Assembly (NCBI RefSeq): GCF_000300075.1 | Contig: NC_018677.1 | Coordinates: 300,001 to 332,000, forward strand | Direction: 5' to 3' | DNA: 32,000 bases | Source of the DNA: Candidatus Saccharimonadota bacterium | GTDB lineage: Bacteria; Pseudomonadota; Gammaproteobacteria; Johnevansiales; Johnevansiaceae | In this document: positions 4,669 to 32,000 of the stretch, one piece after another | Layout of the letters: every line of letters begins with the position of its first letter | Numbering within the stretch: position 1 is the stretch's first letter | Position numbers and translations under genes: made by a program | Notes under the pieces: generated by a model | Told to the model about the DNA's origin: nothing | Seen by the model: only the letters and a program-made list of their open reading frames with translations | Database searches by the model: none

Positions 4669-5603
4669 TTTGTCTATATATGTGTTTTATATATAAAAAA
4701 CCAGTTTGATTGATTTTCAAAAAAAAATATTTGTTAATGAAATTTATATAGGATTAATTTTTATTTCCTTTAATGTTTTTGCTTTGAAGTTCAATTAGGT
4801 TTAATTATTGTTGTATTAGTTTGATAATACTTCTTCTAGTATTTAATTTTTGCTTTCTTTTGTTTTATGTTATGAATTTAAAAAAAAGTATTGTTTGATT
4901 TTTGTTTAATGTTATTTATATTTAACAGCTTGTTGTTTTGCTAAAATATTAGTTTGTAAGTTGTTAATTAATTATGTTTTTTTATTTTGTTTAAAAAAAA
5001 TTATTTATATGTTGTTTGCTTATTACTATTGTTTTGTGTTTAACTTTACAGCATTAATCTTTTAAAGGTTATATGGTATAACTTATTTTTTTAAAGTTTT
5101 TGTTACAATAGGTAGGATGGCATTCTGTATTTATGAACTTATGATAGGTGTAAATTTTCGTGTTTTGTATAGTTTTATATTAGATTTTTTATTGTTAGTT
5201 AATAGCTTTTGCTGTCATATTGTTAAGTGTTTATGCTGTTAGAGTATATATTATTTGATATGTGTAATATTTTATTTACTTAATACTTGTTAGGTTGTTT
5301 TTACTAGATAGGTTTAATTTTTTAGTTGCTATGTTGTTAAACTTTGCTTTTGTTTTTTTGTTCAAACTGGTAATTTGTTAATTTTTTAGTTTATATACTT
5401 TATTTATTAGACTATCCATTTTTGTATTTGTTTTATAAAAATAGTATTGTGTATGTTTGTTATTATTTTAACTTCATTTAGTTTTTGTATTTGATTTTAA
5501 AGAAGGTATGTGTTATTTAAAGGATTGATTAATGGGTTATGTACTTTATGTTGTGCTTAATGTATAATCAGTTATGTGCTTGATGTAAGTATTTGTGTTA
5601 TTA

Positions 5604-5678
5604 TGTGGACTGTGGACTGTGGACTGTGGATTGTGCAATGAATTGGTGTTTGGTGTTTGGTGTTTGCAGTTTGCAGTT
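5604..5678. repeat. Heptamer arrays (TGTGGAC)x3 TGTGGAT TGTGCAA, 5-nt gap, (TGGTGTT)x3 (TGCAGTT)x2
   Basis: Direct reading of tandem units in the 4669-6037 spacer. Confidence 0.9.
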
Positions 5679-6037
5679 TATGTTTTAGCTGGTTGATGTT
5701 AGGAGTTCTGTTAAAGGTTATGTATTTTGTTAAAAATTTGTTAGATGTATTTTGTATTGCTGTTATTTAAATAGTTATACGGTAATTAAATGTTGTTATT
5801 AAATAAAAATCTGTTAGATGTTAACTTGTATTTTTAGATGTTTGGTGTAAGATGATTGTTTTATAGTGATTGGTAAAGTTAGATAAAATAAGTTGTATGA
5901 AGCTTTGTAAAAAAATATAAAAGGTTGCTTAAAAAAGGCTGTATATATGTAAGATTATGCTTTATAAAGAGGCAGTTTCGTTTCATTGGTTTTATGAAAT
6001 ATGTTTTATAAGAATAAGTTTGATTAGTTGATTCTAT

Positions 6038-15043: not shown

Positions 15044-15050
15044 ATAAATA

Positions 15051-15314
15051 TTAAAAAATATTAGGAATTATTATAAAATAATTATTTTTATTAGGTGCAG
15101 ATCCTATATACGTGTTTAGCTTATTATTGCTTTTTACTTGATCTTTTCGTAACCCAACATAAGTTTTAGCATTTAATGTATTTGTAATCGGTTTAATTTT
15201 TATTAATTTTATATTAACTATTTTTTTTACTATTCTATTTATAAACGTTTTTAATTTAATCTTTTTTGTTTTAATTTTAGATAACCTATATAACAACTTG
15301 TTATTTATTTTCAT
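15051..15314 (-). CDS. gatC: Asp/Glu-tRNA(Asn/Gln) amidotransferase subunit C
   Basis: 87-aa ORF ending 7 nt upstream of the gatA start. Size and position are typical of gatC. The sequence itself is highly diverged and K/I/N-rich. Confidence 0.65.
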   Translation of the reverse strand: MKINNKLLYRLSKIKTKKIKLKTFINRIVKKIVNIKLIKIKPITNTLNAKTYVGLRKDQVKSNNKLNTYIGSAPNKNNYFIIIPNIF

Positions 15315-15378
15315 ATAGCCTTTTCCTTAAAATAATAATATTATATAATATACTTTTTTAAATTTACTCTTATTTTGG

Positions 15379-16880: not shown

Positions 16881-17229
16881 TAACATAATTATGCAGTCAC
16901 TTATAATAAGTTTTTATAAGAGGAAAGTCCGGACTCTTTGAGCAAAAGTGCCAGTTAATTGCTGGGCAAAAATTTTTGACGGAAAGTGCACAAGAAAAAA
17001 TACAATCTATTGGTTTTTATAGATAAAGGTGAAAAGGTTTGGTAAAAGCATACCACGTATTTGGAAACAAATTCGTTATGTAAACCCCACTTTGAGTAAA
17101 ACTAAATAAGAATTTAAAGAGCTCTTTTTTTTTATAAACAATTCTGGTAGGTTGCATAAATATATGTAGAAATATATATATTAGATAAATGACTGTAATT
17201 AAAACAGGATCCGGCTTATTATATGTTAA
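16881..17229 (+). ncRNA. rnpB: RNase P RNA (bacterial type A), boundaries approximate
   Basis: Universally conserved P4 strands gaggaaagtccgg (about 16919-16931) and acaggatccggcttat (about 17204-17219). gtgccagttaattgctggg and gtaaaccccac match E. coli rnpB blocks as I remember them. Putative P1 pairing is taacataat (16881) with attatatgtta (17218-17228). Confidence 0.85.
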
Positions 17230-17256
17230 TAATAAACATTAGATACATAAATCTAT

Positions 17257-18315
17257 ATGACACATAAAAGTTTGTTTTTTAATAAAGCAATTGATTATTT
17301 GATAACTAATAAAGATGGTTTATATATTGATTGTACTTTGGGTTTGGGTGGCCATAGTAAACAAATTTTAAATAGATTGTCTATAAATGGTCTGTTAATT
17401 GCACTAGATAATGACTTAAATACAAAAACATTGGTTAAAAATTTAGAATTCTATTTAGATAAAAGGTTTAGTTTTATCAATATCAATTTTAAGTATTTAG
17501 AAATCATAGCCAAAAAAAAACACTTGTTTGGAATTGTTTCAGGCATCTTATTAGATTTAGGAATTTCTACATATCAAATTAAGGATTATAAAAGAGGCTT
17601 TAGTTTTTTTATAAATGGTCCTTTGGATATGAGAATAAACAATACTTTCGGTATCACCGCTTGTTGCCTTTTAAATCATTATAAATTTAAACAAATCTTT
17701 AAGATATTTAAAACATATGGAGAAGATGAACAGTTGTATAGACTAACAGTAGAGATTTGTAATCGTAGACATCACTTTCCGTTTAAAATGACCTTGGAAT
17801 TATCAAATTTGATAAAAACTTTAAAGTTTACAAACTATCATATAAAACACCAATTAATTAAAACAAAACCTAAAATACAAAAAACATACATTATACATCA
17901 TAAATCTATTAAAATAAAACAAAAATTCATCAAACATTCTAAATCAATTAACACCAAACACATTATAATAAAAGAAAATACAACAAAAAACAAAATAATA
18001 AAAACCAATAACAATAGCATAAATAAAAAAAAGAAAAAACACATACATCCATCAACTAAAATTTTTCAAGCAATACGTAGTTACATAAATAATGAAATAC
18101 AAAACTTGGAAATAGTCATTATTACATCTTTAAAACTTTTAAAAACAAACAAAAAGTTAATAATTATTACATTTAATTCTTTAGAATCACAAATAGTAAA
18201 TAAAGTACTAAAAACAACTTTAAATAAAGTAAATAAAATCTATCCTTCAATTGAAGAGGTATTTTATAACAATAGTTCACGTTGTTCTGCTATATTTATT
18301 ATTCAAAAACTTTAA
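17257..18315 (+). CDS. rsmH: 16S rRNA (cytosine1402-N4)-methyltransferase, with a low-complexity internal expansion
   Basis: DCTLGLGGHS, LLDLGISTYQI, RGFSF..GPLDMRI, HPSTKIFQAIR, FNSLESQIV motifs in RsmH order. Confidence 0.85.
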   Translation: MTHKSLFFNKAIDYLITNKDGLYIDCTLGLGGHSKQILNRLSINGLLIALDNDLNTKTLVKNLEFYLDKRFSFININFKYLEIIAKKKHLFGIVSGILLDLGISTYQIKDYKRGFSFFINGPLDMRINNTFGITACCLLNHYKFKQIFKIFKTYGEDEQLYRLTVEICNRRHHFPFKMTLELSNLIKTLKFTNYHIKHQLIKTKPKIQKTYIIHHKSIKIKQKFIKHSKSINTKHIIIKENTTKNKIIKTNNNSINKKKKKHIHPSTKIFQAIRSYINNEIQNLEIVIITSLKLLKTNKKLIIITFNSLESQIVNKVLKTTLNKVNKIYPSIEEVFYNNSSRCSAIFIIQKL

Positions 18316-18377
18316 ACTTTTTATTTATCTTGAACTTGTATTCTTTTCTATTAGTTTTAAACTCTTTTGGTTCTTTC

Positions 18378-18398
18378 TTTTTTTTTTTTTTTTTTTTT
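18378..18398. repeat. Homopolymer T(21)
   Basis: Counted directly. Lies about 60 nt downstream of the rsmH stop. Confidence 0.95.
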
Positions 18399-18820
18399 AC
18401 TCTTTTTTATGCTTTTTTTGTTATATCTAATAATTGATTTTATGTTTTTTTATTTATGTGTTGATATTTTTTTTTGCTTTGTTTGCTGTGTTTTGTGATT
18501 TGCGTTTGTTTTATGTGTTTTTTATTCATTTTATTTGTTGTTTTTAGCCTGTTTAGATTTTGTTATTGCTTTTTGTGTTTTAGTTTTGATGTTATTTGTT
18601 AGTTTAGATGTTATGTCAATTCAAAAGTATGTTGTATAGTTTAAAAAGAAGTAAAATGTGCTTATGTAAGTTGTTTAGTTTAAAAGCTTTTAGATGTTGT
18701 TTAGAGTATAGCGATTATGTTTTGATTTTGGTGTTTTGTTGTTAAATTGGTTTGTGTTTAGTTATTATAATAAAAATATGTTTGTTGTTAATTGAAAGTT
18801 TTTGCTGTTAGTTAATTTTT

Positions 18821-18876
18821 TAGCTTTTAGCTTTTAGCTTTTAGCTTTTAGATGTTAGATGTTAGATGTTAGATGT
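18821..18876. repeat. Heptamer array (TAGCTTT)x4 (TAGATGT)x4
   Basis: Eight units in a single unbroken 7-nt phase. Confidence 0.95.
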
Positions 18877-19585
18877 TGTATTAAAGATGTAAGCGTTTAT
18901 TATATTTGAGTCTTGATATTTGTTATTGTATTTTTGTATTTTTTTTAATTTATTGGTTTGGTTTGTTTAAGATGTTTTAAAAACTTAATTGTTTTAAAAG
19001 TATGTTGTATTGGTGTATAATAAATGTTCACTAGTTAGTTGTATGTTTGTTGTTTATCTTTAAGGTTAAATAAAAAAAGTTGTAAGTTAGATGAAGGTTG
19101 TTTAATGCACGTTGTAGTTTGTATGTTAGAGGTTTAAAATGTTTGCTTTTATTAGTTGTTAGTTGTTATTTATTATTTATTAGATGTTGTTTGTTAAAGC
19201 AAAGATTTTTGACTTTGTATGTAAACTAAATAAGATTGTTGTTTAAGATCAAAAAAGTTGTATAACATTAAATAAGTTTAAATGTAAGAAGATTAGAAAA
19301 TAGAGGGTAGTAGTTGTTATTGTTAAGAGGTTAGTTATTATTTTTTAAGAGGTTTAAGGTTGCTTTAAAGATTAAAGTTAGGTTTGAGGTTTATTTATTA
19401 GAGGTTAGAAGTTTATTAATTGTTTAGTTAGTAAAGAAGTTTGTGTTATACTAGAAAGTTTAAAAGTTATGGTTTTGTTAGTTGATTGGTAGCTTAGTTG
19501 ATGGTTAGAGGAAGGTAGGTTTATTAGTTGGTAATGGTTAGTTATAAAAAAAGTTAGTGGGTTAGTTGTTGTTTAAATAGGTTAG

Positions 19586-19613
19586 TGTTTTGTGTTTTGT
19601 GGTTTGTGGTTTG
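19586..19613. repeat. Heptamer array (GTGTTTT)x2 (GTGGTTT)x2
   Basis: Direct reading. Confidence 0.85.
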
Positions 19614-19647
19614 TGTTAAGTAGTTGCTTTTTAGAGGATAGAGTTTT

Positions 19648-19766
19648 GTTGATTGTTGATTGTTGATTGTTGATTGTTGTTTGTTAGTTGAGGGTTGAGG
19701 GTTGAGGGTTGTAGGTTGTAGGTTGTAGGTTGTAGGTTGTTAGTTGTTAGTTGTTAGTTGTGGTTT
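19648..19766. repeat. 17-unit phase-locked heptamer array
   Basis: (GTTGATT)x4 GTTGTTT GTTAGTT (GAGGGTT)x3 (GTAGGTT)x4 (GTTAGTT)x3 GTGGTTT. Unit starts all fall at 19648+7k. Confidence 0.95.
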
Positions 19767-19844
19767 AGGTTTGATGGTTAAAAGGTCTTAACAAATTATC
19801 TTGTATAGTGGAAGACGATAGTAGAGGTTTAGGTTTGATGGTTA
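19762..19844. repeat. 19-nt direct repeat ggtttaggtttgatggtta x2 (period 64)
   Basis: Identical copies at 19762-19780 and 19826-19844. A second dispersed pair aaaaaaagttagtgggttagttgtt lies near 19547 and 19851. Confidence 0.85.
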
Positions 19845-20352
19845 GTAAAAAAAAAGTTAGTGGGTTAGTTGTTTAGTTAAAAAGAGGTTGGTGTTTTGTG
19901 GTTGTAAAATATAAAATAGTTAATTATTAGTTGTTAGATAGAAGAAAGGTTGTGTAGTAGTATGTGTTGTTGTAAAAAAGTGAAAAACATGTAAAAGAAG
20001 AAAACAATAGAAAAAAGTATATAAGAAAATACTTAAAAGATGAAAAAAAAGAACGGTAATAAATCAGAAAAGAATATATGTATAACATATAAAAAAAGAA
20101 AAATAGAACATAGATTAGAACATGGTATATAGGAGATGGCATAAGAATAAACAGATTACAGAAACAGAAAGGAATAAAAATGTAAACGTAAACAGGAATC
20201 ATGAATAGTTAGTTAATAGGAAGATATGGGTATGTTATTACTGAATTAAAAATAAAGAACATTTAAAGAAACATATAAAAATAAATAAGTAAAAATAAAC
20301 ATACACCATAAAACAAAAAAAAACAAACAAAACAGAAAAAAGATAATAAAAT

Positions 20353-22902
20353 ATGAAGACAAAAATAAAAAAAAACATATATAATGCAACCCCAGCAATA
20401 ACACAATACCTTAGGATAAAAAACCATTATCACAAAATTTTGTTAATGTATCGTATGGGTGATTTTTATGAATTTCTTTTTGAAGATGCGCACACAGCCT
20501 CTGCTTTATTAAATATTCAATTAACTAGCAAAGGAAAATATAATAATAAACGTATTCCTATGGCAGGAATACCTTGTCATAGTTTAAGAACATATTTAAA
20601 ACGTATTATCACAGCAGGAATATCGGTTGCTATTTGTGAACAAATAAAAACAAAAAAAACAAAGAAAAGTAAATTGCTTGAACGAAAAGTAATTCGAGTA
20701 ATTACACCAGGCACTTTATATGAAGACAGTTTATTAGATGAAAGTAAAGATAATTTGATTATATCAATAATTCAAAAAAATAATAAATGGGGTATTTCTT
20801 GGCTAGAATTCACAACAGGTGCTTTTGGTGTTTTGGAAGTTGATAATATACACGATTTACGTTTGGAATTAGATCGATTAAACCCTGTTGAGCTCTTAAT
20901 TTCTAGATTACATAAAAAATTACCTAAACTTCCCGTACACAAATCAATAATTAAACCTATAAGTGATATTAATTTCGATTATAACAATGCTTGTAAAGTT
21001 TTGTTTAAAAAACTAAATATAAAAAATATAAATAAAAAACTTAATGCTGGTGTTTCTGCAGCTGGTGCTATAATACAATATATAAATAATAATAAAATTT
21101 ATAATTTAGCACATATTAACCATTTAATTTTTGAAAATAAAAAAGATAAGTTAAAAATAGATCGTATTACTAAAAAACATTTAGAACTTGATGTAAATGT
21201 TAATGGCAAACAAGAAAATACTTTGTTTAGTGTTTTAAATAATACAATGACACATATGGGGAGTCGTTTATTAAAAAAATGGATTAATAACCCTATTACT
21301 AATTATGATTTAGTTTTTTCTAGACAAAAAGGCGTTGAGATTGTTTTAACAAATAATTTCATAGATATTTTACAAAAATATATAAAAAAAATTGGAGATA
21401 TAGAACGTATTGTTACGAGAATATCTTTAAAAACAGCAAAGCCCTTAGATTTAATCAAATTTAAAATTGCTTTAAACGTTTTTCCTAAACTTAAAACTTT
21501 GTTAAAGGGACTATTAATAGTAAATAAAAACAGCAAGTCTATACTAAATTATATTCATAAAGAGATTTTTACTTTTCCCAATATTGCTTTACTTTTAGAT
21601 GAAGCATTAGTCGATAATCCTCCTAACTCCTTTAGATATGGATATGTAATAAAGTCACATTTTAATAAAAACTTAGATAAGTTGCGTAAAATCTATACTA
21701 ATTCAGAAAAGTTTATAAAAACGTTTGAAAACAAAGAAAAATTACGTACCGGAATAATAAAATTAAAAGTTACTTATAATAAGCTTCATGGTTTGTTTAT
21801 AGAAATACCTAAAGGTCGTAAACATAAATACAAAATTCCTAAAAATTATATAAGAACAAAAACATTAAAAAATTCAGAAAGATTTTATACTAGTGAATTA
21901 AAGTACTTTGAAAAACGTTTAATAGAATCAAAAGAAAAGTCAATAAAATATGAAAAAAGTATTTTTAAAAAATTAATAAAGGTTCTTGTAGGTAATATAC
22001 CTTATTTTATAAAAACATCAAAATCACTAGCCACGTTGGATGTTATTACTACTTTTGCTGAAAGAGCTTTAACACTGAATTATTGCAAACCAATAATAAA
22101 TAAAAACAAAATAGGCATAAAAATCATGGAGGGTAGACATCCTGTAATTGAATCTACAACTAACCATCACTTTGTACCTAATAATTTATTTTTAAATCAT
22201 AATAAAAGTATACACATTATTACAGGACCGAACATGGGTGGAAAGTCTACTTTTATCAGACAAATTGCCATTATTGTTTTATTAACATATATTGGAAGTT
22301 ATGTACCTGCTAAATATGCTGAAATCGGTCCTATTGATCAAATTTTTACCAGAATAGGTGGTTATGATGATTTAAGTGCAGGAAAATCAACTTTTATGAT
22401 TGAAATGCATGAAACTGCTAAAATATTAAACACCGCAACTTTTAAAAGTTTAGTACTAATGGATGAAATAGGAAGAGGAACTAATCCTACAGAGGGTTTA
22501 TGTCTCGCTTGGGCATGTTTAGAAAGAATAATACAAATTAAAGCTTTAACGTTGTTTTCTACTCATTATTTTAGTTTAACTCAAATAGCAAAAAAATTTA
22601 AACAAATAACAAACTTACACTTTAGTGCTTCCATCAAATCTAATAAAGTTAGTTATATTTACAATATACAAAAAGGTGCTACAAACAATAGTTACAGTTC
22701 GTCGGTTGCTAGTTTGGCTAATATAGCACAAGGCGTTATAAATAAATCCAACAATCTTATAAAGCACTTTCAAGATCATCAAAAAAGCCTAAATAAAAGA
22801 CATACGTTAATGAAATATATAAAATCTTTTAAATATAAAGACTTAACACGTTATCTAAAATTTATAAAAAGTTTTTTCAAAAACCTAAAAGATATGTTTT
22901 AA
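20353..22902 (+). CDS. mutS: DNA mismatch repair protein MutS (apparently intact)
   Basis: 849 aa. Mismatch-binding GDFYE, Walker A GPNMGGKSTFIRQ, Walker B LVLMDEIGRGT, STHY. No frame disruption. Confidence 0.93.
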   Translation: MKTKIKKNIYNATPAITQYLRIKNHYHKILLMYRMGDFYEFLFEDAHTASALLNIQLTSKGKYNNKRIPMAGIPCHSLRTYLKRIITAGISVAICEQIKTKKTKKSKLLERKVIRVITPGTLYEDSLLDESKDNLIISIIQKNNKWGISWLEFTTGAFGVLEVDNIHDLRLELDRLNPVELLISRLHKKLPKLPVHKSIIKPISDINFDYNNACKVLFKKLNIKNINKKLNAGVSAAGAIIQYINNNKIYNLAHINHLIFENKKDKLKIDRITKKHLELDVNVNGKQENTLFSVLNNTMTHMGSRLLKKWINNPITNYDLVFSRQKGVEIVLTNNFIDILQKYIKKIGDIERIVTRISLKTAKPLDLIKFKIALNVFPKLKTLLKGLLIVNKNSKSILNYIHKEIFTFPNIALLLDEALVDNPPNSFRYGYVIKSHFNKNLDKLRKIYTNSEKFIKTFENKEKLRTGIIKLKVTYNKLHGLFIEIPKGRKHKYKIPKNYIRTKTLKNSERFYTSELKYFEKRLIESKEKSIKYEKSIFKKLIKVLVGNIPYFIKTSKSLATLDVITTFAERALTLNYCKPIINKNKIGIKIMEGRHPVIESTTNHHFVPNNLFLNHNKSIHIITGPNMGGKSTFIRQIAIIVLLTYIGSYVPAKYAEIGPIDQIFTRIGGYDDLSAGKSTFMIEMHETAKILNTATFKSLVLMDEIGRGTNPTEGLCLAWACLERIIQIKALTLFSTHYFSLTQIAKKFKQITNLHFSASIKSNKVSYIYNIQKGATNNSYSSSVASLANIAQGVINKSNNLIKHFQDHQKSLNKRHTLMKYIKSFKYKDLTRYLKFIKSFFKNLKDMF

Positions 22903-23294
22903 CAACTTTGTCTTATAAACTTTCCTTATTTTACAAATAACTCTTTACCACAACTAACCACTATAGAATTTACAGTTACTATTTTTTTACAATTCTATCA
23001 TCAATTTCTTAAACAACAACCTTCTTTTATAAAAACATCTACTTCAATATTCTTTTATATGTCATACTTCTATATACCCCATATATATCCTATCATACCA
23101 ATACTTCTTACACACAGCATTTAAACTTAACAACTAACTTTTTATAAGTATAACAAATTACATTAAACATTAATCAACCTTCTAAAGCAATAACCATTTA
23201 AATTAATGACAAATAAAAAAATCAATGTTTAAAACATACCATCAACCTTTTTAACTTTTAATATAAAAGCACAAACCTTTTCCATTTTCCTTTT

Positions 23295-23347
23295 CCCTTT
23301 CCCTTTCCCTTTCCCTTTCCCTTTCCCTTTCCCTTCCCCTTCCCCTT
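23295..23347. repeat. Hexamer array (CCCTTT)x6, CCCTT, (CCCCTT)x2
   Basis: Direct reading. The complement is (AAAGGG)n with nine G-runs of 3 or more. Confidence 0.95.
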
Positions 23348-23405
23348 AATCCCCTTTCAACCTTTTTATTTTAACCAAAAACCTTTTACCCTTTATTTTT
23401 TTTCC

Positions 23406-23601
23406 AACCTACAACCTACAACCTACTACCTACTACCTACAACCTACAACCACTAAACACTTACCAACAACCAACAACCAACTACCAACTACCAACTACC
23501 AACTACCAACAACCTACAACCTACAACCAACAACCAACTACCAACTACCTACAACCTACAACCTACAACCTACAACCACTAAACACTAAACACTAAACAC
23601 C
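23406..23601. repeat. 28-unit phase-locked heptamer array (AACCTAC / TACCTAC / AACCAAC / TACCAAC / AAACACT family)
   Basis: Units read at 23406+7k with no phase break across 196 nt. AACCTAC is the reverse complement of the GTAGGTT units at 19711-19738. Confidence 0.93.
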
Positions 23602-23694
23602 ATTCAAACCTTACTACTAACATCAACCCATACTATCAGCAAACAATTACCAACCAACACTTACTTCCAACAACTCCTTACATTTACCCATCTT

Positions 23695-23751
23695 CTTTTT
23701 TAACTAACATAATCAAGTTTAATCAAACTCTTTTTTAACTAACATAATCAA
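23695..23751. repeat. 22-nt tandem duplication cttttttaactaacataatcaa (period 35)
   Basis: Identical copies at 23695-23716 and 23730-23751. Confidence 0.9.
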
Positions 23752-23886
23752 TAACTTAATTTTAACTATAAAACTACATATTTTTTTGTTTTGTTTTCTA
23801 ACAACTATTTACCTAACAAACAACCTCTATCTTTCTACTAATTTAACAAAATCTAATAACTTAACAACTAAACCAATAATTTTTAA

Positions 23887-23935
23887 CTACCAGCTACCAG
23901 CTACCAGCTACCATCAACCATCAACCATCAACCAT
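23887..23935. repeat. Heptamer array (CTACCAG)x3 CTACCAT (CAACCAT)x3
   Basis: Direct reading, single phase. Confidence 0.93.
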
Positions 23936-24066
23936 CTAATTTAATACTACCAACATCTAACATTTAATAACTTCTACTTATTTCATATTATATATATATA
24001 CAACTTCTAACATCTAACATCTAATTTTAGCAACATCTAATAACTATTTACTACAAAACTACCAAC

Positions 24067-24129
24067 TATCTTTCATATAACTACTATACTATATACTACT
24101 ATTATCTTTCATATAACTACTATACTATA
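24067..24129. repeat. 27-nt tandem duplication tatctttcatataactactatactata (period 36)
   Basis: Identical copies at 24067-24093 and 24103-24129. Confidence 0.9.
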
Positions 24130-24311
24130 ATGTATCAATATAAATCAGTTTATATCTTAAATAAAATACAACAAATAATGAAGTAACTAATTCAAATACA
24201 AAGTTATAACATATAAATACTATATTTAAAATAATATAACTTGGTGCTTTAAACTAATAACTACTGTATTACATATTACAAAACATATAAATACAAAGTA
24301 CAAACAAATTA

Positions 24312-24484
24312 CTAACAACTAACAACTAACAACTAACCTAACACCTAACACCTAACACCTCAAACCTAACAACTCTAACCTAACACCTCAAACCTCAAAC
24401 CTCAAACCTCAAACCTAACAACTCTAACCTCTAACCTCTAACCTCTAACCTAACACCTAACACCTAACAACTCTAACCTCTAAC
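24312..24484. repeat. Heptamer arrays: (CTAACAA)x3, one 5-nt phase slip, then 21 phase-locked units of CTAACAC / CTCAAAC / CTAACAA / CTCTAAC
   Basis: All 21 units from 24338 to 24484 were read individually. Confidence 0.95.
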
Positions 24485-24494
24485 TGATAACAAT

Positions 24495-24526
<32 letters not shown>

Positions 24527-24562
24527 ATAACAACTTTAAAGCAAAACTCAAACATCTATTAA

Positions 24563-24590
24563 CTAATAACTAACAACTAACAACTAACAA
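24563..24590. repeat. Heptamer array CTAATAA (CTAACAA)x3
   Basis: Direct reading. Confidence 0.9.
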
Positions 24591-24945
24591 TTTACAAATA
24601 CAAACTATTAAACAAAAAAGCATCAATTAACTAACAACTTTTAATCTATTTTTTTTAATCTAACCTCTAATAACAAACATCAAAAACTTTAACTCAAAAA
24701 TCAACAATACAAAACAGCAAACATAACCATCAACAATACAAACTCTAAACTTTAAACAAAAATATAACAAATAACACAAAACTGAAAAATACTAGTAGAA
24801 AACAACGAAAAAAGAAAACCTAAAAAGCAATAACAAAACACCTAACTGCAACTACAAAACTAAAAAACAGCTAACAAACAACAAACAACACATAATATAA
24901 AGAGAGATAAACCCAAATATTAGATATAACAACAAAAATATTTGT

Positions 24946-25059
24946 AATAATATACGACCAGTATTAGCGGTAATAAAGTCAGTACCAGCGGTAATATACG
25001 ACCAGTATTAGCGGTAATAAAGCTCCATAGACCAGTATTAGCGGTAATAAAGTCAGTAA
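24946..25059. repeat. Three and a half direct copies of a 22-31 nt unit (core accagtattagcggtaataaag)
   Basis: Core at 24957-24978, 25001-25022 and 25031-25052. A shortened copy accagcggtaata at 24984-24996. Copies 1 and 2 share 31 nt and copies 1 and 3 share 29 nt. Confidence 0.9.
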
Positions 25060-25479
25060 TATATGGAGTTGTTTTTTTGAGCCAATTTAAATGAAGAATC
25101 TGTACATAAATAATCAGGTAAGTCAAAAAAAGTAAAAATGTAAGTTTGTCCATAATAGTATTGGTTGACACATTCTATAAAAATACATTAATAAACCACT
25201 TGAAAACGATGTAAATGCAAAATCTCTATCACTTACTGCATCGAAAAATTTTTATAAGATCAAAACATAGTAGCTTTTTAATTAAGGCACAAATTCAAGT
25301 TGAATATGTAGTTACAGCAGATCATATCCTAAAGGTAATATATTTATTATTTTCCGCCAATCTAAAAATACGTAAATAAGCTCTAAATAGCTTTTAATTT
25401 TAAGCTAATACATGATGGCAAAAAGTAATTGTGTGCTGTGATGATTGTAACTGATTTTATCCAGTTAATATAGTATAAG

Positions 25480-25514
25480 AATCACTAATCACTAATAGCT
25501 AATAGCTAATAGCT
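25480..25514. repeat. Heptamer array (AATCACT)x2 (AATAGCT)x3
   Basis: Direct reading. Confidence 0.9.
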
Positions 25515-25922
25515 ATTTTTCTTAAAGCTGGTCTTAACTTTAGTTAGTTAATGCATCTATTTTTTTTCTTAAATTAAGATGAATAGCTGTAGAAAACAAT
25601 CACATATATGCATTTTTTTTTCAAAGCTTTCTATTCTTTATTATTTTGCTAAACCACTTTATATTCTTTCTTAATACAACTTTCAATTACTTTTTATTCC
25701 TTTTTTTATACTTTTACTTTCTTTTCAACAACTAACATTTTTCTTATTGTTGTATTTTTTATATTTACGTTGATATCATACCAATAAATACGAAAATAAA
25801 ACTTATAGAATTTAACTACGAAATTATCAGTATAAAAATTAAAACAGCTACGTCTAATCAGGTTATTTTAACGTGTTCATTTTAAATTTTGCTATATGCT
25901 ATTAAGTTTATATTATATATAA

Positions 25923-25995
25923 GCCGGAGTAGCTCATATGGTAGAGCACCGCATTCGTAATGCGAAGGTAATAGGTTCAATTCCTATCTCCGGTA
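25923..25995 (+). tRNA. tRNA-Thr (anticodon CGU)
   Basis: Manual cloverleaf: acceptor gccggag/ctccggt, loop ttCGTaa, T arm atagg-ttcaatt-cctat. The anticodon arm and variable region (cgcattcgtaatgcgaaggt) are identical to E. coli tRNA-Thr(CGU) as I remember it. Confidence 0.88.
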
Positions 25996-26001
25996 AATTA
26001 A

Positions 26002-30545: not shown

Positions 30546-31543
30546 TACTTATCTCTTTTTTCCATATTTTTCTTAATAACATACCTATTAGAAACTTTTT
30601 CTCTCTAATATTGAGTTTACAATACATACTGCTTGACCTTCTTTTACTCTAACTTTCTTTTACCAATATTTTTTTTCATACACACAACCCTTTTTCCTAC
30701 TTCTACAACTAGTCTTTCTTCTAACAAATACACTAACAATATTCAACCATTTTTATACCCCTACAACCACCACCACCAATACCAACACTTATTTTTACAT
30801 CCTTTTACCGTTTATATACCCCTTTTACACCAATACCAACCCTTAACTATTACCTCCTAACCGCTAACCGCAAACACCAACCACTTAACATATATTCTTT
30901 TTAACCAAAACTATTAACAACTATCCTCAAACCTATACCTATACGCTTTTTACAATACAAGCATTACAACCATCTTTGAATCCTATTCTTTTACCACGAA
31001 CTAAACAGCTTTAAGACCTATTAACTAAACATATATTGTACCGCCTACTTTTCCTCATACAGCATATTACCTTGTTTTTTTTGTTTTACATTATACAGCC
31101 CTTACCACGAACTAACTAGCTAACAAAAATATAATAACTAATAACATACAGCTTAGTTTAACATCATACATTTCCTCTTAAACACTTCAATTAAAGCACA
31201 TAACAAATTAGCCACAATTAAACAGAAATCAAATACTATAAAACACAAATCTAATACTATAAAACAAGCACATCTGCTAACAACAAACCCACAACACATT
31301 TAATCCATTGATCATAAATATAGAAGCATAAACAACAAAACATCAAACCAAAAATCACACAACCCATAAATAAAAACATTATTATCAACAAAACAACATT
31401 TAGCCATTACAATTTTCCTATTTTTTTTTAATAATACATAAACAAACTAACAAAATACTAAAGACATAAACAACACAAAAACCTTTTTTATTGTCCTTTT
31501 TCTTTCATTTAACACCTTTTTCAGCAAACACAATTTCTTTTGC

Positions 31544-31634
31544 CTAACAGCTAACAGCTAACAGCTAACAGCAAACAGCAAACAGCTAACAGCTAACAGC
31601 TAACAACTAACAACTAACAACTAACAACTAACAA
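31544..31634. repeat. 13-unit phase-locked heptamer array (CTAACAG)x4 (CAAACAG)x2 (CTAACAG)x3 (CTAACAA)x4
   Basis: Units read at 31544+7k without a phase break. Confidence 0.95.
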
Positions 31635-32000
31635 GCAAATGTTTTTACATACAATATCTTCTTTTAGTATATATATTCTTTTTTTTATATAACTCCTTTC
31701 TGCTTACTGTAAACATTTATCAGCATACACATAACATCTTAATATCTTCCCATTAACACCTCTTAACATTTAGATCTATATCTTAACCTTTACTACTTTT
31801 TTTTCACTTACTATATAACCTTCTACTTACTTTTCTATAATACTTTAGCCTTACTGCCTATACCTTACAATCTTTAGCATTCCACCATTCTCTTATACTT
31901 TTATATAACCTTTCACCTTTTACCTTTATGAACCTACCTTTAGCCTTATCTTCCTGTTACCACAGAACCTGCTACAGCAAATACACACCACTTTTTTATT

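What the first reader, a model, noticed from the sequence alone, without database searches (positions are those of the whole stretch)
19900..20352. Strand-composition polarity switch immediately upstream of mutS
All spacers to the left (1-476, 4669-6037, 18316-19925) are G+T-rich and C-poor on the + strand. All spacers to the right (22903-24920, 30546-32000) are A+C-rich and G-poor. The transition is visible within about 450 nt: G+T-rich up to about 19970, A+G-rich from about 19970 to 20280, then A+C-rich from about 20280 to the mutS ATG. Under the usual rule that the leading strand has G>C and T>A, a + strand change from G/T to A/C is what a replication terminus, where forks converge, would give. 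Gene orientation fits weakly, since the five CDSs to the right (permease, thrB, hisC, hisF, hisA) are on the minus strand. An inversion breakpoint or an origin with atypical bias are alternatives.
Basis: partly seen in the sequence, partly recalled or inferred. Interest (0 to 1): 0.7.

Follow-up and report, generated by a model that had tools for sequence, protein, structure and literature searches.

The report
Inversion junction, not replication terminus
The abrupt change in strand composition just upstream of mutS in this whitefly-symbiont (Portiera) genome is real, but it most likely marks the seam of an old inversion between two blocks of opposite strand bias; it is one of at least three such flips in 50 kb, not the place where replication ends.

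Summary
The window is Candidatus Portiera aleyrodidarum from Bemisia tabaci. Spacers left of mutS almost lack C on the + strand (GC skew +0.54 and +0.69; C-free runs up to 171 nt). Spacers to the right almost lack G (-0.85 and -0.71; a G-free run of 369 nt). T-A skew turns at 19973, and cumulative G-C is flat across mutS.

The terminus reading is not supported. Extending 18 kb into the same genome shows two more flips, at parA and at hisB|rlu. There is no dif-like site and no excess of DnaA boxes. In Portiera of Trialeurodes, which keeps the ancestral gene order, mutS lies mid-replichore about 22 kb from rsmH, on the opposite strand.

The rsmH|mutS adjacency is therefore an inversion junction, shared with a sister lineage. 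The polarity on each side matches the ancestral leading or lagging identity of that block. DNA gained or lost between strains keeps the local polarity, so each spacer seems to propagate its own three-letter composition by slippage.

What drives the extreme skew is unresolved. I could not obtain a whole-genome polarity map. The papers I could search describe the microsatellites and the lost GC-skew pattern, but not this near strand-exclusive composition.

The parts
18316..19972 (+). Left arm: G+T-rich, nearly C-free spacer downstream of rsmH, full of 7-nt tandem repeats. About 18590-20050 is an expansion specific to the B. tabaci lineage.
   Evidence: Composition. Tandem repeats. Only 17916-18587 aligns to the sister lineage L134 (73%), and the remainder has no counterpart there. 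Indel DNA between strains in this spacer is C-free: A21 C0 G60 T99.
19973..20352 (+). Junction and mutS upstream flank. A-rich and still C-poor to about 20300, then about 70 nt of A+C-rich sequence before the ATG. T-A skew turns here.
   Evidence: Window 20052-20498 is homologous to L134 9698-10134 (68%). No promoter-like excess, no terminator and no Rfam hit.
20353..22902 (+). mutS, intact (849 aa). Overall GC skew is about 0. 4-fold sites are C21:G12, the lagging-strand signature it also has in every relative examined.
22903..24920 (+). Right arm: A+C-rich, nearly G-free spacer with 6- and 7-nt tandem repeats. It occupies the position held by lipA in the ancestral order.
   Evidence: lipA follows mutS in TV, L257 and S. 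simplex. No lipA remnant is detectable. 1.1-1.2 kb of this spacer is missing in strains L002 and L003.
19645..19771 (+). Heptamer arrays (GATTGTT, GAGGGTT, GGTTGTA, GTTAGTT). Their reverse complements lie at 23405-23607, so mutS is bracketed by inverted copies of the same repeat families.
   Evidence: arms of 124 nt at 73%, 60 nt at 88% and 40 nt at 90% complementarity..
23405..23607 (-). Inverted partner arrays of the heptamer families listed above.
4669..6037 (+). Further G+T-rich, C-poor spacer of the left block. It is G-rich right up to the stop codon of the minus-strand gene rplY.
30546..32000 (+). Further A+C-rich, G-poor spacer of the right block. It continues to about 32824 beyond the window, between hisA and hisH.
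17257..18315 (+). rsmH, the last gene of the ancestral block prs...rsmH. It forms the left side of the inversion junction.
24921..25922 (.). Unskewed 1-kb non-coding stretch between the G-free spacer and tRNA-Thr. It does not share the polarity pattern, and its origin is unknown.

Best explanation
The switch is the seam of an old inversion. In the ancestral Portiera gene order, rsmH lies on the G-rich (leading) strand, and mutS lies about 22 kb further on, on the opposite strand. In the Bemisia lineage, a rearrangement with one end between rsmH and aroQ and the other just upstream of mutS placed mutS head-to-tail behind rsmH. This step is inferred from gene order.

The DNA left of the seam therefore carries leading-type polarity on the + strand (G>C). 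mutS and what follows carry lagging-type polarity (C>G). This is shown at 4-fold sites of the ancestral-order relative.

The non-coding DNA at and around the seam later grew by slippage of short, mostly 7-nt, repeats that are already C-free or G-free. Each spacer thus copies and exaggerates its own polarity. It is shown that strain-specific indel DNA has the local polarity. It is inferred that this process is what maintains the polarity.

The site is one of several such seams and has no demonstrated role in replication. The cause of the near-total exclusion of C or G is not established.
For: (1) Gene order.
- TV (CP004358): prs ... hisG rplM rpsI rsmH(+) | aroQ(-) ... cysS(+). This continues as cysS ... 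lipA, mutS(-), alaS in the same orientation. The link between the two loci rests on both ending inside a 458-aa cysS.
- The B. tabaci strains and lineage L134 have rsmH(+) | mutS(+).
- TV-like order is the ancestral state according to PMC5322561 and PMC7821994.

(2) Ancestral polarity.
- TV 4-fold sites give G119:C84 on the rsmH-sense strand across L258.
- They give G170:C96 on that same strand across the mutS locus.
- mutS itself is C24:G10 in sense. This predicts G-rich to the left and C-rich from mutS rightwards after the inversion, as observed.

(3) Sister lineage L134.
- Its rsmH-mutS spacer also turns from G+T-rich to A+C-rich, at about L134 9290.
- Its two ends are homologous to the B. 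tabaci spacer ends.
- The 1.46-kb G+T-rich core is specific to B. tabaci.

(4) S. simplex.
- The 3.1-kb spacer between aroQ(+) and mutS(+) is G-free on the sense strand (GC skew -0.65 to -1.0).
- Ancestral polarity predicts this. Flanking-gene direction does not.

(5) Non-uniqueness: there are three flips in 50 kb.

(6) Turnover.
- Indels between strains 0.2-0.8% apart are confined to spacers.
- Their base composition matches the host spacer: A21 C0 G60 T99 in the left spacer and A32 C15 G2 T13 in the right.

(7) No terminus or origin motifs were found.
Against: - The second junction of the proposed inversion (aroQ|alaS) could not be retrieved for B. tabaci Portiera, so a single clean inversion is not proven. 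S. simplex joins the same two breakpoints differently (aroQ|mutS), which shows the history is more complex.
- Genes of the left block show no 4-fold skew in B. tabaci Portiera (G85:C92 on the + strand, pooled by hand from the per-gene counts), although its spacers are strongly G-rich. The spacer polarity is therefore not simply inherited gene-level skew.
- Spacer G+C (22-30%) is about twice that of 4-fold sites (about 12%). An additional spacer-specific process must exist, and it is not identified.
- The junction is old: it is shared with a lineage whose MutS is only 76% identical. The spacers no longer align between lineages, so persistence of polarity rests on the inferred copy-your-neighbour growth.
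- I could not obtain a whole-genome polarity map.
Confidence: 0.6

Rival explanations
1. Transcription sets the polarity. With almost no terminators, strongly expressed operons read through into the spacers. The non-template strand becomes G+T-rich and C-poor. The switch at mutS would then be where read-through from the hisG-rplM-rpsI-rnpB-rsmH unit (+ strand) gives way to antisense read-through from the his/thrB operon (- strand).
For: - In all four spacers flanked by co-directional genes in the 50 kb, the G-rich strand is the sense strand.
- Spacers upstream of mutS, ilvI and hisA share one architecture in sense orientation: G+T-rich distally, then A+G-rich for the last 300-500 nt before the start codon.
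- Only one terminator-like site was found in 8 kb, against 2.2 expected.
- At 4-fold sites, genes co-oriented with the G-rich strand have G161:C106. Anti-oriented genes have G71:C85 (pooled by hand from the counts). This would fit if highly expressed operons dominate.
Against: - In S. simplex, the 3.1-kb spacer between aroQ(+) and mutS(+) is G-free on the sense strand.
- Spacer 4669-6037 is G-rich on + right up to the stop codon of rplY(-).
- mutS read-through leaves no imprint on its own downstream spacer.
- Differences between strains are almost all transversions, with only 3 C/T differences among 77 isolated sites. This does not look like cytosine deamination of an exposed strand.
- No expression data were available.
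Confidence: 0.15
2. Replication terminus. Forks converge just upstream of or within mutS, and the spacers record present-day leading-strand bias.
For: - The sign of the switch (+ to -) is right for a terminus, and genes converge on it.
- mutS still has C>G at 4-fold sites.
Against: - An origin-type flip lies only about 21 kb to the left and another about 14 kb to the right. One origin and one terminus cannot explain the pattern unless the replichores are grossly unequal and the other 300 kb has no flips.
- The literature reports no coherent skew pattern in these genomes.
- There is no dif-like site.
- In TV the homologous region is mid-replichore.
Confidence: 0.06
3. The three-letter composition is favoured because it prevents single strands from folding. 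This lineage lost ssb, dnaN, the clamp loader and dnaQ. Sequences holding both G and C on one strand would form hairpins and be deleted, so only C-free or G-free repeats can expand. Which strand carries G would be historical accident, and the flip at mutS would have no meaning beyond the join of two independently grown spacers.
For: - Skewed spacers fold at -3.3 kcal/mol per 150 nt as DNA. Genes fold at -8.3, and random sequence of the same G+C at -10.1.
- The gene losses are reported in PMC3673631.
- Three-letter spacers occur in all three unstable lineages examined (B. tabaci, L134, S. simplex) but not in TV.
- Spacers are enriched in G, not merely depleted of C.
Against: - Weak folding is an automatic consequence of the skew, so it does not show cause.
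- Polarity is not random. It matched ancestral strand identity in every junction segment that could be tested.
- Selection is expected to be weak in such symbionts.
Confidence: 0.1

Closest known systems
GC-skew discontinuities at inversion breakpoints in bacterial chromosomes (my own knowledge of the literature, not checked here)
   Same: The skew sign changes exactly where a block has changed orientation relative to the ancestral order. Each side keeps the polarity it had before the rearrangement.
   Different: The amplitude is far larger (|GC skew| 0.7-1.0 over kilobases). It is carried by repeat-rich non-coding DNA that arose after the rearrangement, not by the genes, whose skew is weak or absent.
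Skew switch at a bacterial replication terminus (for example the E. coli dif/Ter region)
   Same: There is a + to - change of GC skew on the reference strand, with genes converging on the site.
   Different: The switch is not unique, with three flips in 50 kb. There is no dif-like sequence. The homologous region of the ancestral-order relative is mid-replichore.
[quoted passage not shown] 2015, PMC5322561, and 2020, PMC7821994)
   Same: It is the same organism with the same features: large spacers, a 7-bp repeat period, indels in repeats, many inversions, and loss of a clear GC-skew pattern.
   Different: Term searches of those three papers found no description of the near strand-exclusive base composition of the spacers, or of its flipping at block boundaries. 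'Skew' occurs 0 times in two of them. Two library-wide searches also found nothing.
Heavy/light-strand asymmetry of animal mitochondrial DNA (my own knowledge)
   Same: One of G or C is strongly excluded from one strand, in a small, AT-rich, repair-poor genome.
   Different: In mitochondria the asymmetry is genome-wide and tied to a single replication mode. Here it is patchy, restricted to spacers, and reverses every 15-35 kb.

Membership tests
Replication terminus | A single + to - skew switch per chromosome | tested here: not met
   Three sign changes lie within 50 kb of the same genome: cumulative G-C minimum near -1062, plateau at 20300-22900, minimum near 34045. The whole genome could not be examined.
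Replication terminus | dif (XerCD) site at or near the switch | tested here: not met
   The E. coli dif consensus has no match with up to 3 mismatches in 32 kb. Caveat: the Portiera dif consensus, if one exists, is unknown.
Replication terminus | Homologous locus lies at the skew switch in relatives with a clear skew | tested here: not met
   In TV, 22 kb around mutS and 21 kb around rsmH all have the same polarity.
Replication terminus | Read-depth minimum in growing populations | not testable with these tools
   No read data were accessible.
Replication origin | - to + skew switch with clustered DnaA boxes or an AT-rich unwinding element | tested here: not met
   The sign is the opposite one. 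There are 8 DnaA-box-like sites in the window against 11 expected, and none at 18316-25000.
Inversion breakpoint with skew discontinuity | Gene adjacency and relative orientation change at the coordinate, compared with the ancestral order | tested here: met
   TV has rsmH(+)|aroQ(-) and alaS|mutS, with mutS on the other strand. B. tabaci Portiera has rsmH(+)|mutS(+).
Inversion breakpoint with skew discontinuity | Each side keeps the polarity of its block in the ancestral genome | tested here: met
   TV 4-fold sites give G>C on the rsmH-sense strand throughout, and C>G on the mutS-sense strand. This matches G-rich to the left and C-rich from mutS rightwards.
Inversion breakpoint with skew discontinuity | A reciprocal second breakpoint with the opposite switch | not tested
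   The aroQ and alaS loci of B. tabaci Portiera could not be fetched.
Portiera B. tabaci-type microsatellite spacers | Large intergenic regions dominated by tandem repeats of about 7 nt, with indels between strains confined to them | tested here: met
   Many period-7 arrays lie in the spacers. Of the indel blocks between strains, 0-1 per comparison fall in genes, and 7 nt is the commonest size in the L002/L003 pair.
Transcription-associated strand asymmetry | The G+T-rich strand is the non-template strand of the transcription unit crossing the region | tested here: inconclusive
   This holds for 4 of 4 co-directional spacers in B. tabaci Portiera. It fails for the S. simplex aroQ-mutS spacer and for 4669-6037 next to rplY. 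No transcript data were available.

The most novel reading that the evidence does not exclude
The spacer polarity reports present-day fork direction, and this symbiont does not replicate from a single origin. It has lost DnaN, the clamp loader, SSB and DnaQ. Initiation zones would lie at the - to + flips (grx|parA and hisB|rlu, about 36 kb apart), and the mutS site would be a fork-convergence zone between them. The chromosome would then be copied as roughly ten short replicons.
Probability: 0.05. Interest if true: 0.9.

Novelty: new variant of a known kind. Interest (0 to 1): 0.4.

Why it matters
The switch itself is of limited consequence. It is another rearrangement seam in a genome already known for inversions, and it should not be annotated as a terminus.

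The more interesting fact lies underneath it. In the unstable Portiera lineages, kilobases of non-coding DNA use essentially three letters per strand. Which letter is missing flips between neighbouring blocks.

If polarity tracks ancestral strand identity and is propagated by slippage, these spacers are a readable record of past rearrangements. If it tracks present replication or transcription, they would be a built-in reporter of how a bacterium that lost its clamp, clamp loader, SSB and proofreading subunit copies and transcribes its genome.

Either way, skew-based prediction of origin and terminus is unreliable in such genomes.

Tried and rejected
Whole-genome polarity map (not achieved):
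- A period-7 GTTG pattern was unspecific in the viral collection.
- The one genome-contig scan, with GTTGTWR x3, filled its 120 rows with cyanobacterial and Bacteroidota heptamer repeats. It returned no Portiera.
- A 4580-aa chimera of nine Portiera proteins returned nothing from the search for homologous proteins.
- The one metagenome scan, with TV LysC, returned only distant aspartokinases of at most 55% identity.

Pseudogene remnants: tblastn of 29 protein sequences taken from the relatives' loci (TV-like L133, S. simplex L256, L134), including lipA, lipB, ruvC, alaS, lysC, aroQ and pheT, found nothing in the B. tabaci spacers.

RNA genes and signals in 18300-26000: only tRNA-Thr was found. 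Promoter-like sites were fewer than in shuffles, and there was one terminator-like site, inside mutS. There was no dif-like site and no DnaA-box excess. The small ORFs in 24921-25922 had no Pfam match.

Polarised substitution spectrum: only about 50 polarisable events were available, too few to show that mutation is strand-asymmetric today. I rejected cytosine deamination as the obvious driver, because transitions are rare among strain differences (8 of 77).

Iteron-like repeats at 24956-25049: I rejected these as origin repeats, because their copy number varies from 1 to 3 among strains and they occur nowhere else in the loci held.

Full report
IDENTITY OF THE WINDOW
The mutS product of the window (20353-22902, +) is identical to the MutS encoded in several complete 350-360 kb genomes: CP007563.1, CP016343.1, CP016327.1 and JGI contig PWF_10001. 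Close homologues are named Candidatus Portiera aleyrodidarum by their sources. A 12-kb overlap with CP016304.1 (352,068 bp) is identical to the window, and a second overlap is 99.7% identical. The window is therefore Portiera of Bemisia tabaci, read in reverse relative to that record. The mutS start falls at about 189 kb of the record.

Pfam assignments, plus RNA genes, give this gene order:
- tRNA-Lys, trpEGDC (+), tRNA-Asn, tRNA-Met
- spacer
- rplY, prs (-), prfA (+), crtY-crtB-crtI-gatB-gatA-gatC (-)
- hisG, rplM, rpsI, rnpB, rsmH (+)
- spacer
- mutS (+)
- spacer
- tRNA-Thr, permease, thrB, hisC, hisF, hisA (-)
- spacer

THE OBSERVATION
On the + strand:
- Spacer 4669-6037 has G237:C70.
- Spacer 18316-20352 has G420:C78.
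- Spacer 22903-24920 has C514:G43.
- Spacer 30546-32000 has C365:G62.

In 100-nt bins, C is 0-6% from 18400 to 20300 and G is 0-6% from 22900 to 24900. The longest C-free run is 171 nt and the longest G-free run is 369 nt. The longest such run in 200 shuffles was 105 nt.

Cumulative T-A and keto skew peak at 19973. Cumulative G-C is flat from 20300 to 22900 and falls from the mutS stop codon onwards.

The constant property is exclusion of C on one side and of G on the other. A versus T varies within each spacer.

There are small exceptions:
- Spacer 1-475 is weakly skewed.
- A G-free patch lies inside rsmH (17827-17973).
- Spacers 15044-15378 and 24921-25922 are unskewed.

THE SWITCH IS NOT UNIQUE
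I extended the sequence 9.4 kb to the left and 8.5 kb to the right using loci from CP016304.1. The spacers lepA|groEL and grx|parA are C>G on + (-0.36 and -0.34). The spacers rlu|marC and marC|ilvI are G>C (+0.41 and +0.67, with C at 0-5% over about 2 kb).

Cumulative G-C therefore has a minimum near -1 kb, a plateau at mutS and another minimum near +34 kb. That is three sign changes in 50 kb. One origin and one terminus cannot account for this.

Santos-Garcia et al. state that no B. tabaci Portiera shows an appreciable GC-skew pattern, unlike the other lineages (PMC5322561).

I found no dif-like sequence and no excess or cluster of DnaA boxes. There is no RNA family, promoter-like excess or terminator at the switch.

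GENE ORDER IN RELATIVES
In Portiera of Trialeurodes vaporariorum (CP004358.1), the order is prs, prfA, crtYBI, gatBAC, hisG, rplM, rpsI, rsmH(+), then aroQ(-), SDF, metF, MFS, zwf, glk, def, aroE, glnS, cysS(+). This is collinear with the window up to rsmH. PMC5322561 and PMC7821994 treat the TV-like order as ancestral.

A TV-type contig carrying the TV MutS reads ilvD, lon, hisS, der, lysC(-), alaS(-), mutS(+), lipA(-), lipB, ruvC, aspS, mgtE, cls, clpX, clpP, cysS(-). The two loci meet in cysS. Both end inside a 458-aa cysS. They do not overlap, so the link is an inference.

In the ancestral order, mutS therefore lies about 22 kb beyond rsmH, on the opposite strand. B. tabaci Portiera has rsmH(+) directly followed by mutS(+). 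The simplest history is an inversion with one end between rsmH and aroQ and the other between mutS and alaS.

The same adjacency is present in a sister lineage, L134 (MutS 76% identical; 4-fold sites 82% identical). The junction is therefore old.

In Portiera of Singhiella simplex (CACTJB01; identified from table 1 of PMC7821994), the same two breakpoints are joined differently: aroQ(+) | 3.1-kb spacer | mutS(+), lipA(-), pheT(-).

L134 has mutS | 1.7-kb spacer | pheT(-). The right flank of mutS in B. tabaci (tRNA-Thr, permease ...) is thus a further, lineage-specific junction.

ANCESTRAL POLARITY PREDICTS THE OBSERVED POLARITY
At 4-fold degenerate sites in TV:
- The rsmH-sense strand has G119:C84 across the rsmH locus.
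- The same strand has G170:C96 across the mutS locus, regardless of gene orientation.
- mutS is a lagging-strand gene (C24:G10 in its own sense).

After the inversion, the + strand should be G-rich up to the junction and C-rich from mutS onwards. That is what is seen. mutS keeps C>G at 4-fold sites in every lineage: 21:12 in B. tabaci, 13:8 in L134, 28:14 in S. simplex and 22:4 in L257. 4-fold sites are only partly saturated between B. tabaci and TV (61% identical against 40% expected by chance). Residual ancestral skew in genes is therefore plausible.

In L134 the rsmH-mutS spacer also turns from G+T-rich to A+C-rich, about 700 nt before mutS. Its two ends are homologous to window 17916-18587 and 20052-20498. 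The 1.46 kb between those ends in B. tabaci is a lineage-specific G+T-rich, repeat-rich expansion.

In S. simplex, both flanks (aroQ and mutS) have ancestral C>G on the shared sense strand. The 3.1-kb spacer between them is G-free on that strand.

HOW THE POLARITY PERSISTS (INFERENCE)
The spacers no longer align between lineages, apart from compositional matches. No remnant of the ancestral neighbours is detectable.

Between B. tabaci strains that differ by 0.2-0.8% in substitutions, hundreds to thousands of bases of spacer are gained or lost. Genes have 0-1 indels per comparison. The indel DNA has the host spacer's composition, for example A21 C0 G60 T99 in the left spacer and A32 C15 G2 T13 in the right.

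The same heptamer families recur in several spacers, always in the orientation that fits the local polarity. mutS is bracketed by inverted copies of them.

I infer that spacers grow by slippage of units that are already C-free or G-free. A polarity set at the time of the rearrangement would then be copied forward.

WHAT IS NOT EXPLAINED
The extremity of the skew is not explained.
- 4-fold sites are about 12% G+C with modest skew. Spacers are 22-30% G+C, almost all of it one base per strand. The spacers are not simply neutral DNA at the genes' mutational equilibrium.
- Left-block genes have no 4-fold skew (G85:C92 on the + strand, pooled by hand from the counts), although that block's spacers are strongly G-rich.
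- Differences between strains at isolated sites are 69 transversions (A/T, G/T, A/C) against 8 transitions. This argues against cytosine deamination as the current driver. It would be compatible with G/T interconversion on one strand, but there were too few polarisable events to test strand asymmetry.
- The skewed spacers are nearly unable to fold as single strands: -3.3 kcal/mol per 150 nt, against -8.3 in genes. That may matter in a lineage that lost ssb (PMC3673631), but it is also an automatic consequence of the skew.

THE TRANSCRIPTION RIVAL
In favour:
- All four co-directional spacers in B. tabaci Portiera have the G-rich strand as the sense strand.
- The spacers upstream of mutS, ilvI and hisA share a sense-oriented architecture (G+T-rich, then A+G-rich before the start codon).
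- Terminators are scarce.

Against:
- The S. simplex aroQ-mutS spacer has the opposite polarity.
- Spacer 4669-6037 is G-rich on + right up to the stop codon of a minus-strand gene.

I cannot exclude that transcription contributes.

NOVELTY AND LIMITS
The large spacers, the 7-bp repeats, the inversions and the loss of a GC-skew pattern are published. Term searches of those papers found no description of the near strand-exclusive composition of the spacers, or of its reversal at block boundaries. Two library-wide searches also found none.

The main limit of this work is that I could not obtain a complete genome. The collection scans and a chimeric protein query failed. The number of flips genome-wide, the second inversion junction and any replication profile all remain untested.

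VERDICT
The terminus interpretation is not supported. The inversion-breakpoint alternative is supported (confidence 0.6). The switch itself is ordinary for this genome. The three-letter spacers that make it so visible deserve a genome-wide analysis.

Noticed in passing
window 17827-18008 (inside rsmH, 17257-18315): rsmH carries an in-frame, G-free, A+C-rich low-complexity insertion: a G-free run of 147 nt and a 39-nt tandem repeat at 17871-17951. The protein is 352 aa, against 298 aa in Portiera TV, and its best local alignment to TV RsmH covers only 52% of the query. The patch has the opposite polarity to the spacer that starts 300 nt later.
   Followed up: partly
window 24921-25922: This is an unskewed 1-kb non-coding stretch between the G-free spacer and tRNA-Thr, about 99% conserved among strains. 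It holds a 20-nt motif, GACCAGTATTAGCGGTAATA, at 24956, 25000 and 25030. Copy number is 1-3 in other strains, and the motif is absent from the other loci checked. There was no Rfam or Pfam match. It may be a young pseudogene remnant.
   Followed up: partly
window 10353-32000, aligned with L001-L004: Isolated differences among five B. tabaci Portiera strains are 69 transversions (A/T 31, G/T 18, A/C 18, C/G 2) against 8 transitions, in genes and spacers alike. This is a very unusual spectrum for a bacterium.
   Followed up: partly
L010 7173-9130 and L009 4297-7089 (about window -2254 to -297 and 33457 to 36249): Two further polarity flips of the opposite sign (C-rich to G-rich) lie just outside the window. 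One runs across parA. The other is at the divergent pair hisB(-)|rlu(+).
   Followed up: partly
L256 6869-10000 (Portiera of Singhiella simplex) and L134 12539-14000: Other unstable Portiera lineages have the same kind of spacer next to mutS. S. simplex has 3.1 kb upstream with GC skew -0.65 to -1.0, including two 250-nt windows with no G at all. L134 has 1.5 kb downstream with skew -0.75 to -0.89.
   Followed up: partly
window 38595-39138 (via L009), 19973-20300 and 30546-30945: The last 300-500 nt before the start codons of ilvI, mutS and hisA are A+G-rich and C-poor on the sense strand, whatever lies further upstream. This may be a shared leader composition.
   Followed up: no
window 23276-23347: This is a pure pyrimidine tract made of (TTTCCC)n and (CCTTTT)n repeats, about 70 nt long. 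Sequence of this type can form triplex (H-) DNA.
   Followed up: no
window 16881-17232: The apparent spacer between rpsI and rsmH is the RNase P RNA gene (Rfam RF00010, 186 bits). It should not be counted as a spacer.
   Followed up: yes
L136-L255 (genome-contig scan): Tandem heptamers such as (GTTGTTA)n and (GTTGTTG)n are common in filamentous cyanobacteria and Bacteroidota genomes. The heptamer motifs are therefore not specific to Portiera.
   Followed up: no
L010 2740-3591 (about window -6687 to -5836): The lepA|groEL adjacency, which PMC7821994 uses as a marker of the derived B. tabaci gene order, carries an 850-nt C+T-rich spacer (GC skew -0.36). This is another rearrangement junction with a polar spacer.
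   Followed up: no
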